DNA of 32,889 nt from Balneolia bacterium (GTDB taxonomy: Bacteria; Bacteroidota; Rhodothermia; Balneolales; Cyclonatronaceae). Shown one piece after another: positions 27,178-30,120 of this stretch. The stretch is taken from positions 1-32,889 of the forward strand of contig PXDL01000065.1 in NCBI GenBank assembly GCA_003566395.1, in the 5' to 3' direction. A program made the position numbers and the translations under genes. The notes beneath the pieces were generated by a model. It searched no databases. It was not told the DNA's origin and was given only the letters and a program-made list of their open reading frames with translations. The stretch's first letter is position 1. The number at the start of each line of letters is the position of its first letter.

Positions 27178-27349
27178 AGTGGTCAGGTATTAGATTAAAA
27201 GATCGGGATATAATCGCATCAAAATAGAAAAACGCGGGCACACTTTCCCGCATCTGTCCCGGACAGCTTAATAGAAAGCAAACATCCTAAAATAATGAGG
27301 CGATCGGTCGCGCGTGTTATGATGCCGTTAACTTTTGCGCTGCCGTGCT

Positions 27350-28063
27350 TCACACATTAGAGCGCTGAACGGTATCTCTGTAGAATCTCACCAGCACCTC
27401 TTGGGAAGCCCCGGCATAAAACAGCAAAAAGATGACTGTAAATATCAACTGAAGCCGCACAAACCCGTTTTCCCGATATTTTCTGGCCGATGTGACGACC
27501 TCGGCATCCATCACCCTGAATGTTGCTCTTTTGCGAAGTTTACGGATGAAATCATTGTCCTCCATCACCAGAAGCGATTCATCAAATCCGTTGAGAGCGT
27601 TGAAGGCGTGCCTTTGTACGAACAGGCTTTGGTCGCCATAACGGAAGGGCAGCAGGTCGAAGCGGGTGAACCAGCCGTAGAGTTTCATAACGGCCCGCTG
27701 TTCATCGAATCGAAGCCTGAAGCATCCGGCCTCGGACGATCGTGAGGCTGCGCGAATTTGTTGAAGAAAGCCGGCGGGTGGAAAGGTATCGGCATGGAGG
27801 AAGTAGAGCAAATCGCCCCGGCTTTGCGTAGCTCCGTAATTCATTTGAGCCGCCCGGCCTTTCCGGGGTGACTGAAGCACCTTGAAATTATGAGATGCAA
27901 TGACGTCCGCCGTCCGATCCGGGCTGCCTGCATCCACTAAAAGACACTCACATGAAGGGTCCGAATCCAGCTCATCCCGCAGCCTTTCAAGAAGCAGTCC
28001 GATTTCTCCCGCTTCATTATAAACTGGAATAATTATGCTTATAAAGGGTGAAGAACCGGACAT
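27350..28063 (-). CDS. GT2-family glycosyltransferase, rSAM-associated (TIGR04283-like, arsenosugar-type cluster)
   Basis: Motifs SIIIPVYNEA, GRAAQMNYGA, FLHADT, YGDQSLF, MED and TSARKY. Confidence 0.9.
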   Translation of the reverse strand: MSGSSPFISIIIPVYNEAGEIGLLLERLRDELDSDPSCECLLVDAGSPDRTADVIASHNFKVLQSPRKGRAAQMNYGATQSRGDLLYFLHADTFPPAGFLQQIRAASRSSEAGCFRLRFDEQRAVMKLYGWFTRFDLLPFRYGDQSLFVQRHAFNALNGFDESLLVMEDNDFIRKLRKRATFRVMDAEVVTSARKYRENGFVRLQLIFTVIFLLFYAGASQEVLVRFYRDTVQRSNV

Positions 28064-28106
28064 GTAAGCACGGTATCCTTAAATTTTATGTATGCGGGGC
28101 AAGCGG

Positions 28107-28733
28107 TTAGAAAGATACAGGGTGATGGGCATCGAGGTGATGCGCCAGAACCCGGTAATCCTCCACCGTATCCAGATCGCTGAGTTTTTCGAGCTGGGTG
28201 AAGGAGGCTTCCTCGTTTCGAATGAGTTCGAGTGTTTGTTGATAAACCTGCCCGTGGCTCCAGTCGCTCAGTCCGAATATACGTGTGTGATCTTTATTCA
28301 TCCCCATCAAATAATAGCCGCCGTCTTCGGCAGGACCGGCCACGATATCGGTTGCCGTAAGGGCTGCGAAAGCCTGATCGAGGTGATGCGTTCTCAGCTG
28401 CGGGCAGTCACTCCCGATGATGCAGATTCGCTCGTAACCTTCATCGAAAAGCTCACGGAAGGCCGCTTTCATCCGTTTGCCGAGATCTCCGTTTTGCTGC
28501 AATCTGAGATAAAAACGGTCCGGTAGGCCGGCGTTGTTTGCAATCACGGGCGTAAAATAGACAAAGACATCTGCATCAACCCGTTCGGCTGCATCAAAGG
28601 TGAGGGCTATGAGTGTGCGATACACCTTGAGGGTGGCATCAGGCCCGAGGCTGGCTTCAAGTCGCGTTTTGACCTTGCCGGGCTGCGGGTTTTTGACAAA
28701 AATAATGAGCGCTTTGTCGGAGGAAGAGCTCAC
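28107..28733 (-). CDS. GT-A/CofC-like transferase (TIGR04282/DUF2064-like)
   Basis: Motifs KNPQPGKVKTRL, Q.GDLGKRM, IGSDCP, GPAEDGGYYL and DLD. The GTG start at 28733 overlaps the arsS TGA (GTGA), with GGAGG upstream. Confidence 0.9.
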   Translation of the reverse strand: MSSSSDKALIIFVKNPQPGKVKTRLEASLGPDATLKVYRTLIALTFDAAERVDADVFVYFTPVIANNAGLPDRFYLRLQQNGDLGKRMKAAFRELFDEGYERICIIGSDCPQLRTHHLDQAFAALTATDIVAGPAEDGGYYLMGMNKDHTRIFGLSDWSHGQVYQQTLELIRNEEASFTQLEKLSDLDTVEDYRVLAHHLDAHHPVSF

Positions 28734-29785
28734 GTTGTGGTGCCTCCGCAACTGCTTCCCGCCCCGGCCGTGCAGCCGAAACAGTGCTGATTCACTCTGA
28801 TTTCGCGGTTTAACAGAGCTTCAGGGTCGAAATCGCTGATATGCCGGGATTCTTCGGTTTCAACCGGAATTTCGAGCATCTGATTAAAGTCGCAATCGTA
28901 GAGGGTGCCGTTCCAGCTTACAGAAATAGTATTGCGGCACATCACACCTTCAGCCGCCGCAGGGTTGTAGGCCCTGACGAGCTTTTCCATATAATCGTCA
29001 AGATTACCGGACTTTACCAAAAACTCCAGATACCGGCTTATAGGCAGGTTGGTGATGGTAAAAAGCTCATTAAACTCAATGCCGTGTTTGCGCATCAGGT
29101 TGTTTTTGAAATCGGCTTCCAGAGCCTTTTGATCGCCGGGAAGAAAAGCACCGGCGGGATTATATACCAAATTTAGAACAAGGCCGGTGCCTTCTTTACC
29201 ATATCCGATTTCATTCAGTTTGTGAAGCGCTTCAATGGAGCGGTCGTAGGTACCCTCACCGCGCTGTTTGTCGGTGGTGTATTTGTTGTAAAAGGGAAGA
29301 GAGCAGGTAACTTCCACCCCGTGCTTCTTGAAAAACTCCGGGAAGGCGCGGAATTTTGGGTTGGTCACCAGAATGGTGAGGTTAGACCGGACGATGACCG
29401 TTCGCCCCGGTTTGCTGATGCGTTCCACCAGCCACCGGAAATCGGGATGCATTTCCGGGGCGCCACCGGTCAGGTCCACCGTTTCGGCATCCAGGGCTTC
29501 AATGGCCTGAATGCAATATTCCAGATTTTCGCGAGACATTTTCTCCTTACGGTCCGGACCTGCATCCACGTGGCAATGTTTGCAGGTCATATTACACATA
29601 TACCCGAGGTTGATCTGGAAAATATCGATGCCTGTCGGCTTTAGCGGAGACAGTCCGCTCTGCTCCAGCATCTGATCAAAACGGGGGAGCGTACACAGTA
29701 CAGGTGAGTGATTGTTGATCACTCTTAGTTGTTCGGCAGGATCTTTTAGAGCGTGTGAGCGTGAAGTGAGAGAGGTTACATCCAT
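28730..29785 (-). CDS. arsS: Radical SAM protein ArsS (arsenosugar biosynthesis / Cys-rich TIGR04167-like family)
   Basis: CNMTCKHC (CxxxCxxC) followed by HVDAGP; also DLTGGAPE, LVYNP, MCR..ISV.W.G.LYDCDFNQML and HCFGCTAGAGSSCGG. Confidence 0.92.
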   Translation of the reverse strand: MDVTSLTSRSHALKDPAEQLRVINNHSPVLCTLPRFDQMLEQSGLSPLKPTGIDIFQINLGYMCNMTCKHCHVDAGPDRKEKMSRENLEYCIQAIEALDAETVDLTGGAPEMHPDFRWLVERISKPGRTVIVRSNLTILVTNPKFRAFPEFFKKHGVEVTCSLPFYNKYTTDKQRGEGTYDRSIEALHKLNEIGYGKEGTGLVLNLVYNPAGAFLPGDQKALEADFKNNLMRKHGIEFNELFTITNLPISRYLEFLVKSGNLDDYMEKLVRAYNPAAAEGVMCRNTISVSWNGTLYDCDFNQMLEIPVETEESRHISDFDPEALLNREIRVNQHCFGCTAGAGSSCGGTTT

Positions 29786-30120
29786 TACATTCCCAGGCGT
29801 TTGGTTTTATTCATCATTTGCACCCCGTGAACGAGTGTGGCCCCTCCGCGGATAGCGCAGGCAACGTGCACGGCTTCCATCATCTGTGTTTCATTTGCCC
29901 CTTTTTCAAGGGATGCTTCGGTATAGGCATCGATGCAGTACGGACACTGAACCGTATGCGCTACGGCCAGAGCAATAAGTGCTTTCTCCCGGGCCGTGAG
30001 TTCGCCTTCCTCAAAAACCTGATTATAATAGTCGAAAAACTTTTCGCCGAGTACAGGCTCGAAATCACCAATATCGCCGAATTTGGCAAGGTCTTTTGAA
30101 TCGTAATAAGAGTTTTGCAT
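29785..30120 (-). CDS. AhpD/carboxymuconolactone-decarboxylase-like protein associated with ArsS
   Basis: Motifs REKALIALAVAH, QCPYCIDAY, EAVHVA and GGATLVHG. TAATG overlap with arsS. Confidence 0.9.
   Translation of the reverse strand: MQNSYYDSKDLAKFGDIGDFEPVLGEKFFDYYNQVFEEGELTAREKALIALAVAHTVQCPYCIDAYTEASLEKGANETQMMEAVHVACAIRGGATLVHGVQMMNKTKRLGM

What the first reader, a model, noticed from the sequence alone, without database searches (positions are those of the whole stretch)
27350..30120. ArsS radical-SAM operon with two transferases and a CxxC AhpD-like protein, but no arsM
Seen: four co-directional genes, three of them coupled by TAATG and GTGA overlaps: AhpD-like (CPYC), ArsS, a TIGR04282-like transferase and a TIGR04283-like transferase. 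Established: cyanobacterial ArsS adenosylates DMAs(III) made by ArsM; to my knowledge the two transferases are uncharacterised. Inference: this is an arsenosugar/arsenolipid-type pathway in a heterotrophic FCB bacterium. It either scavenges externally methylated arsenic (the AhpD-like protein might be the As(V) reductase) or acts on a different metalloid substrate. It is the best candidate here for an incompletely described system.
Basis: partly seen in the sequence, partly recalled or inferred. Interest (0 to 1): 0.75.

Follow-up and report, generated by a model that had tools for sequence, protein, structure and literature searches.

The report
Arsenosugar operon lacking its arsenic methylase
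This four-gene operon matches gene families already annotated for arsenic-sugar synthesis, and no arsenic methylase was found in its genome or in 38 of 89 carriers sampled, so it likely builds arsenic-ribosides from dimethylarsenic made by other organisms.

Summary
The operon is real. All four genes pass NCBIfam cut-offs for families already named 'arsenosugar biosynthesis' (TIGR04169, ArsS/TIGR04167, TIGR04282, TIGR04283). No arsM was found in this 89%-complete genome or in a closed congener. That state is common, not special: 38 of 89 arsS-bearing genomes in a 251-genome phylum sample have no ArsM-like gene. ArsS keeps every conserved cysteine, and arsM-less copies are scattered through its tree, so nothing points to a changed substrate. 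The families are nested: AhpD-like (61, all with arsS), within arsS (89, all with TIGR04282), within TIGR04282 (149). TIGR04282 folds like CofC/FbiD guanylyltransferases, and nucleoside phosphorylases recur beside it. Likely route (inferred): external dimethylarsenic, ArsS adenosylation, phosphorolysis, NDP activation, GT2 transfer to a lipid or polyol. A MerA-like reductase, elsewhere in this genome but directly upstream in two arsM-less relatives, may feed the AhpD-like protein. That protein sits beside arsS with or without arsM, so it does not replace ArsM. A non-arsenic substrate is not excluded. The scan found related clusters before (143 notes).

The parts
29785..30120 (-). TIGR04169 AhpD/CMD-like protein, 111 aa, C59-P-Y-C62; dedicated ArsS partner, likely thiol reductase or carrier for dimethylarsenic
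   Evidence: 193 bits over cut-off 120; CPYC invariant in 60 aligned sequences; 61 of 61 genomes that have it also have arsS
28730..29785 (-). ArsS radical SAM enzyme (TIGR04167; Radical_SAM + DUF3641), 351 aa
   Evidence: 444 bits over cut-off 300; C64/C68/C71 and C283, C298, C335, C338, C346 invariant in 71 sequences; 50% identical to a cyanobacterial ArsS that lies near arsM
28107..28733 (-). TIGR04282 / DUF2064 protein, 208 aa; likely CofC-like nucleotidyltransferase
   Evidence: 197 bits over cut-off 134; model pLDDT 92; closest characterised folds CofC/FbiD, Z 20.2, 20.0, 17.6; K22-T-R24-L, D109, D186, D188 conserved
27350..28063 (-). TIGR04283 family-2 glycosyltransferase, 237 aa
   Evidence: 225 bits over cut-off 182; Pfam Glycos_transf_2; D44, D92, D144 conserved
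27230..27255 (-). terminator-like hairpin closing the operon before the alkaline phosphatase gene
   Evidence: 9-pair stem plus T-run; consensus match only

Best explanation
This four-gene operon encodes ArsS and its usual partners but has no arsM in the genome, and it likely makes dimethylarsinoyl-ribosides (arsenosugars or arsenolipids) from dimethylarsenic taken up from the environment. Shown: gene content, family membership, intact conserved residues, purifying selection, absence of arsM hits. [quoted passage not shown] Inferred steps: (1) the CPYC protein binds DMAs(III) or reduces DMAs(V), recycled by a MerA-like flavoprotein (G000:C548:5888-7330); (2) ArsS makes DDMAA; (3) a purine/MTA-type phosphorylase (candidate G000:C531:6874-7707) releases adenine, leaving the alpha-ribose 1-phosphate; (4) TIGR04282 makes the NDP-sugar; (5) the inverting GT2 TIGR04283 passes the arsenoribose to a polyol, lipid or polyprenyl phosphate as a beta-riboside.
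For: Family scores. ArsS cysteines invariant and shared with cyanobacterial ArsS. ArsM-less ArsS do not form a clade: 17 label changes for 25 rows. The dedicated ArsM (NF038099) is tied to ArsS where it occurs: 13 of 14 genomes, and within 8 kb in 30 of 80 loci. arsM is cleanly missing from an otherwise like operon (Salegentibacter L122 against Autumnicola L125). Nested retention 61 in 89 in 149 is what loss of upstream steps with salvage would give. Synonymous sites near saturation (pS 0.65-0.88) with pN 0.08-0.15 for ahpD and arsS and 0.26-0.41 for the transferases against five congeners. Phosphorylase in 21 of 80 loci, 18 of them with the TIGR04282/DUF2064 cluster; MTA phosphorylase-TIGR04283-TIGR04282 contiguous on a Burkholderia thailandensis plasmid and mtnP at the end of an Acinetobacter cluster. 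MerA-like gene directly upstream of the same four genes in G026 and G040, both without an ArsM, and next to arsM in a cyanobacterial cluster. AhpD-like gene in 59 of 60 arsS genomes outside family f19 but 2 of 29 inside it; five f19 genomes tested carry the FMO protein of anaerobic green sulfur bacteria. Algae of a soda lake accumulate DMA (PMC7345539, passages).
Against: No biochemical test of any step here. Generic ArsM shows no association with arsS (51 of 89 against 87 of 162, Fisher p 0.6). TIGR04282 occurs in 60 genomes without arsS, 29 of them also without ArsM, so the late module may have a non-arsenic use. Five genomes of this genus have no acr3 and no convincing ArsB, and four of five no ArsP, so arsenic handling is otherwise thin. 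No DMA importer was identified. The phosphorylase and the MerA-like gene are unlinked in this genome; the MerA-like gene is also in 11 of 17 arsS-negative relatives. AhpD presence does not track loss of arsM. The genome is 11% incomplete.
Confidence: 0.55

Rival explanations
1. The phosphorylase/TIGR04282/TIGR04283 module mainly activates an arsenic-free 5-substituted ribose (for example from methylthioadenosine) for envelope decoration, as in mycobacterial methylthioxylose capping, and arsM-less ArsS adenosylates a non-arsenic acceptor or is secondary.
For: TIGR04282 in 29 genomes with neither arsS nor ArsM; TIGR04282-TIGR04283 stay in place after arsS is lost (L235, L243, L236, L241); MTA phosphorylase annotated next to the pair; a TIGR04282 gene follows a GT2 in a mycobacterial plasmid cluster without arsS in the 14.6 kb shown; MtxS makes the lipid donor of methylthioxylose (PMC12088412, passage). 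That the MTX cluster holds a DUF2064 nucleotidyltransferase and an MTA phosphorylase is recalled, not checked (paper not held).
Against: ArsS here is unchanged at all conserved positions and arsM-less copies are interleaved with arsM-linked ones; the dedicated ArsM sits inside these operons in 30 of 80 loci; where ArsS is missing, four order-level relatives pair an ArsM-like gene with another radical SAM enzyme, again pointing to methyl-arsenic.
Confidence: 0.18
2. The operon is a resistance device: ArsS traps toxic DMAs(III) released by neighbouring methylators as pentavalent DDMAA and the transferases dispose of it; the CPYC protein is a DMAs(III) chaperone, not a reductase.
For: The ArsS reaction is redox-neutral and ends in an oxidised product (PMC13598754, passages); DMAs(III) is more toxic than As(III) (PMC11868830, passage); the genus lacks the usual pumps; common in anaerobic green sulfur bacteria without AhpD.
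Against: The same passage says DMAs(III) oxidises readily in air; no ArsR-type regulator or ars gene is linked and no conserved upstream motif was seen; late genes are kept after arsS is lost, which fits a wanted product better than disposal.
Confidence: 0.12
3. The pathway is complete from As(III): arsM lies in the unassembled 11% of this genome, or a methyltransferase unlike the known ArsM families does the job.
For: 89% completeness, 599 contigs; a generic arsM is present in 2 of 6 congeners, unlinked to the cassette.
Against: Closed congener G005 (one contig, 99%) and G001, G004 (98-100%) have the cassette and no ArsM hit; 37 other genomes of at least 95% completeness show the same; none of 18 Methyltransf_31 hits in G000 scores as ArsM.
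Confidence: 0.1
4. The operon is a relic left after arsM loss and no longer used.
For: Stepwise loss of ahpD and arsS is frequent at this locus in relatives.
Against: All four frames are intact in six genomes of the genus under strong purifying selection.
Confidence: 0.05

Closest known systems
Synechocystis PCC 6803 ArsM-ArsS, first steps of arsenosugar biosynthesis (Xue et al. 2019, seen only as cited in PMC8552651; ArsS chemistry from passages of PMC13598754 and bioRxiv 10.64898/2026.04.29.721666)
   Same: ArsS family member over cut-off, same cysteines, 50% identical to a cyanobacterial ArsS in an arsM cluster
   Different: No arsM in the genome; a CPYC AhpD-like gene is coupled to arsS; both transferases are in the operon; the MerA-like gene is unlinked
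NCBIfam 'arsenosugar biosynthesis' set TIGR04167, TIGR04169, TIGR04282, TIGR04283, NF038099
   Same: Four of five members present above cut-off, in the order seen across the taxonomic order
   Different: NF038099 ArsM missing, as in 76 of 89 arsS genomes of the phylum sample; TIGR04282 is named a glycosyltransferase but folds like a guanylyltransferase
CofC/FbiD phospho-acceptor guanylyltransferases (PDB 7P97, 2I5E, 6BWG) and uncharacterised 3CGX
   Same: Fold, Z 20.2 (rmsd 2.4, 186 aligned), 20.0 (2.2, 188), 17.6 (2.8, 189); 3CGX Z 27.6 (1.8, 205)
   Different: 16-21% identity to CofC/FbiD, far below the CofC cut-off (36.5 against 105 bits); substrate not F420-related by context
Mycobacterial methylthioxylose (MTX) capping pathway
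   Same: Logic of phosphorylase, nucleotidyltransferase and GT2 acting on a 5'-substituted adenosine (mostly recalled; MtxS role from PMC12088412)
   Different: No radical SAM step known to me there; no epimerase or GT-C gene in this operon; homology of its genes to these was not tested

Membership tests
ArsS (TIGR04167) | Score above curated cut-off over the full model | tested here: met
   444.5 bits, cut-off 300, positions 2-302 of 303
ArsS (TIGR04167) | CX3CX2C motif plus Cys-rich DUF3641 domain | tested here: met
   C64/C68/C71; PF12345 188 bits; C283, C298, C335, C338, C346 invariant
ArsS (TIGR04167) | DDMAA synthase activity on DMAs(III) | not testable with these tools
   needs an enzyme assay
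Synechocystis-type ArsM-ArsS pathway | An arsenite methyltransferase in the same genome | tested here: not met
   genome 89% complete; closed congener G005 also without
Synechocystis-type ArsM-ArsS pathway | Arsenosugar formed in vivo | not testable with these tools
   needs arsenic speciation
TIGR04169 arsenosugar-associated peroxidase-like protein | Score above cut-off, CxxC, next to arsS | tested here: met
   193 bits, cut-off 120; CPYC; 1-nt overlap with arsS
Canonical AhpD peroxidase | CxxCxxxH motif (role of this His in the proton relay is recalled) | tested here: not met
   the position holding His in PDB 3BEY and 7Y4R is Tyr66 here, invariant in 60 sequences
TIGR04282 | Score above cut-off | tested here: met
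   197 bits, cut-off 134
TIGR04282 | Glycosyltransferase activity, as the family name says | tested here: inconclusive
   closest characterised folds are guanylyl- and cytidylyltransferases; best glycosyltransferase Z 14.6; a fold shows no activity
CofC/FbiD | Score above TIGR03552 cut-off | tested here: not met
   36.5 bits, cut-off 105
TIGR04283 / GT2 | Score above cut-off and GT2 domain | tested here: met
   225 bits, cut-off 182; PF00535 74 bits
Selenium-using form of the system (ArsS selenoprotein) | selD in the genome and a Sec codon in arsS | tested here: not met
   no selD over cut-off; arsS is one open frame ending in the normal C-terminal motif

The most novel reading that the evidence does not exclude
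Arsenoribosides are a cross-fed, wanted cell component. Many FCB bacteria dropped arsenic methylation and salvage dimethylarsenic: a MerA-like flavoprotein plus the CPYC protein form a dedicated DMAs(V) reductase in aerobes (not needed in sulfidic anaerobes), and TIGR04282 makes an NDP-arsenoribose, the missing donor of arsenosugar and arsenolipid synthesis. Genomes with only the late genes salvage DDMAA or arsenoribose.
Probability: 0.25. Interest if true: 0.75.

Novelty: new variant of a known kind. Interest (0 to 1): 0.4.

Why it matters
The steps after DDMAA in arsenosugar and arsenolipid synthesis appear unassigned in what I could read, and arsenosugars are usually credited to algae and cyanobacteria. 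If this reading holds, about a third of genomes in this phylum sample can turn dimethylarsenic into arsenoribosides, many without methylating arsenic themselves, and three concrete enzyme assignments become testable. This locus itself is one of many alike, so its value is as a compact, minimal example.

Tried and rejected
arsM search in G000 with two NCBIfam models, Pfam Methyltransf_31, tblastn and two home-built profiles: only UbiE-like and generic methyltransferases. Selenium reading: no selD. AhpD as replacement for ArsM: no anticorrelation. A separate ArsS clade for arsM-less genomes: not seen (quick tree only, 104 rows, one duplicate row dropped, one partial ORF under 300 aa excluded by the length filter if present; labels for MAGs depend on completeness). 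Conserved operator upstream among 7 relatives: none. Downstream alkaline phosphatase and divergent DUF3996-like gene as parts: the phosphatase is behind a terminator-like hairpin and not downstream in G005; the DUF3996-like gene is conserved by synteny in the order but was not among recurring neighbours of 80 wider loci. Other recurring neighbours (DUF547, PiT, TVP38/DedA, sterol-desaturase-like) were not found in G000 with these queries. ArsS fold search gave only generic radical SAM/SPASM/twitch enzymes; no ArsS structure by sequence. Sequencing runs: none was listed. Atlas look-up of the small membrane protein was not available. Literature: ten searches listed no paper on arsM-less arsS operons or on the function of TIGR04282, TIGR04283 or TIGR04169; Xue 2019 and Angala 2017 were not held, Cheng 2021 was not looked up, and no supplements were read, so these may already cover parts of this.
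Full report
Observation. The window is the whole of contig C162 of a 3.99-Mb, 89%-complete assembly. Four minus-strand genes lie at 29785-30120, 28730-29785, 28107-28733 and 27350-28063, joined by TAATG and GTGA overlaps and a 43-nt gap. They pass the curated cut-offs of TIGR04169, TIGR04167 (ArsS), TIGR04282 and TIGR04283, all four already named for arsenosugar biosynthesis. A terminator-like hairpin follows. GC content (49-53%) matches the window (50%). The closest named ArsS among 80 loci returned is from an uncultured Rhodohalobacter (64%), which suggests the order Balneolales; I did not test this further. The four-gene order recurs in 17 of 23 arsS loci from the same order.

Is arsM missing? 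In this genome the best hits to ArsM models are UbiE-like and generic methyltransferases far below cut-off. Incompleteness is a caveat, but congeners G001, G004 (98-100%) and the closed G005 also have the cassette and no ArsM. In the 41-genome order sample an ArsM-like gene (NF008823, E<=1e-50) is in 13 of 24 arsS genomes and 14 of 17 without arsS, and none has the dedicated NF038099 type over cut-off. In 251 genomes of the phylum (250 of at least 95% completeness plus this one), 89 have arsS; 38 of these have no ArsM-like hit at E<=1e-19, 13 have the dedicated type, and generic ArsM is independent of arsS (Fisher p 0.6; kin are not independent). Of 80 mostly Bacteroidota loci, 30 have a linked dedicated arsM; of the other 50 genomes 12 have it elsewhere, 24 have a weaker ArsM-like hit and 14 none (completeness not given for these). 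The arsM-less state is therefore real and common.

Has the substrate changed? The sequence gives no sign. All eight family cysteines are kept, identity to a cyanobacterial ArsS in an arsM cluster is 50%, and arsM-less ArsS proteins are scattered in the tree, 17 changes for 25 rows, for example Salegentibacter inside a well-supported clade of arsM-linked enzymes. The genes are under purifying selection against five congeners. There is no selD. Published ArsS chemistry, which I saw only in citing passages, is adenosylation of DMAs(III) to DDMAA, redox-neutral, with adenine removed afterwards.

Partners. The AhpD-like family is strictly tied to ArsS: 61 of 61 carriers have arsS, and 59 of 60 arsS genomes outside family f19 have it, against 2 of 29 inside f19; five f19 genomes tested are green sulfur bacteria by their FMO gene. 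It has Tyr where solved AhpD-like proteins have His after the CxxC. It is beside arsS whether or not arsM is linked (23 of 26, 43 of 46), so it is a general ArsS partner. A MerA-like flavoprotein with the N-terminal redox disulfide and no C-terminal cysteine pair, preceded by a small membrane protein, lies on contig C548. Its orthologues (64-66%) are directly upstream of the same four genes in G026 and G040, which have no ArsM, and related genes are in cyanobacterial, Acinetobacter and Burkholderia clusters. It is also in 11 of 17 arsS-negative relatives, so the link is not exclusive. A reduction chain NAD(P)H, flavoprotein, CPYC protein, DMAs(V) is an inference from this.

Late steps. The TIGR04282 model (pLDDT 92) is closest to uncharacterised 3CGX and then to CofC/FbiD guanylyltransferases (Z 17.6-20.2), above any glycosyltransferase (14.6). 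A nucleoside phosphorylase is in 21 of 80 loci; among 44 loci with full flanks 9 of 10 with it also carry the TIGR04282/DUF2064 cluster, against 14 of 34 without (p 0.01, uncorrected for kinship). It is the only such gene in 4 of 5 genomes checked. MTA phosphorylase, TIGR04283 and TIGR04282 are contiguous on a Burkholderia thailandensis plasmid. This genome has an unlinked homologue, 46-59% identical to the linked ones. From established chemistry (recalled): phosphorylases give alpha-ribose 1-phosphate, nucleotidyl transfer keeps the anomer, GT2 enzymes invert, and natural arsenosugars are beta-ribosides. The acceptor is unknown; weak matches of TIGR04283 to polyprenyl-phosphate transferases and DedA-family neighbours elsewhere allow a lipid.

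Nesting and what counts against. All 89 arsS genomes have TIGR04282, which is in 149; 60 lack arsS and 29 of those lack ArsM too. In several, arsS is cleanly gone from the same locus. This fits loss from the top with salvage of intermediates, but it equally allows an arsenic-free use of the late module, the main rival. The genus has no acr3 (0 of 5), no convincing ArsB and ArsP in 1 of 5, and no importer for dimethylarsenic was identified.

Novelty. The families are curated and the scan has 143 earlier notes on related clusters. Ten literature searches listed nothing on arsM-less operons or on the three partner families, but the two primary ArsS papers were not read; I recall that Cheng et al. 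2021 reported ArsS as widespread across phyla with similar activity. I file this as an uncharacterised, common variant of a known system: it works like the ArsS arsenosugar route but fails the ArsM criterion of the Synechocystis pathway. Interest 0.4.

Noticed in passing
G000:C548:5475-7330 (L154): Small membrane protein plus MerA-like flavoprotein, a pair that recurs beside arsS in other genomes; preceded by a CRP/FNR-type regulator and a second copy of the small protein, after a glucosyl-3-phosphoglycerate synthase gene.
   Followed up: partly
L059:194-2226 (G017), also G023, G029, G034: An ArsM-like gene (353 aa, below both ArsM cut-offs) overlaps a radical SAM gene that is only distantly related to ArsS (66 bits) in genomes that lack arsS but keep TIGR04282-TIGR04283; G025 has a related enzyme in a cluster with DUF547, TVP38, MerA-like and a fused transferase.
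   Followed up: partly
L206-L208, L211, L218, L220, L222: Green sulfur bacteria carry arsS-TIGR04282-TIGR04283 without ahpD or arsM; 20 of 29 arsS genomes of that family have no ArsM-like hit.
   Followed up: partly
G195, G281, G285, G159: ArsM-like domains inside open frames of about 1020-1045 aa in one genus of green sulfur bacteria, probably fusions.
   Followed up: no
L063:1369-1701 (G014): An arsR-arsM remnant with a large internal deletion in a genome with an intact four-gene cassette, an example of arsM loss in progress.
   Followed up: no
G000, G001, G003, G004, G005: No acr3 in any of five genomes of the genus, no convincing arsB, arsP in one; how these cells export arsenite is unclear.
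   Followed up: partly
window:30432-30923: Divergent DUF3996-like gene, conserved opposite the cassette across the order even where ahpD and arsS are lost.
   Followed up: partly
window:12800-21203: Two acyl-CoA dehydrogenases followed by etfB, etfA, a FixC-like oxidoreductase and a FixX-like ferredoxin on the minus strand.
   Followed up: no
window:22575-23984: Erythromycin esterase family protein (PF05139, 296 bits; far below EreB/EreD cut-offs).
   Followed up: no
window:1-11886: Ordinary division and cell wall cluster, murE to ftsZ.
   Followed up: no
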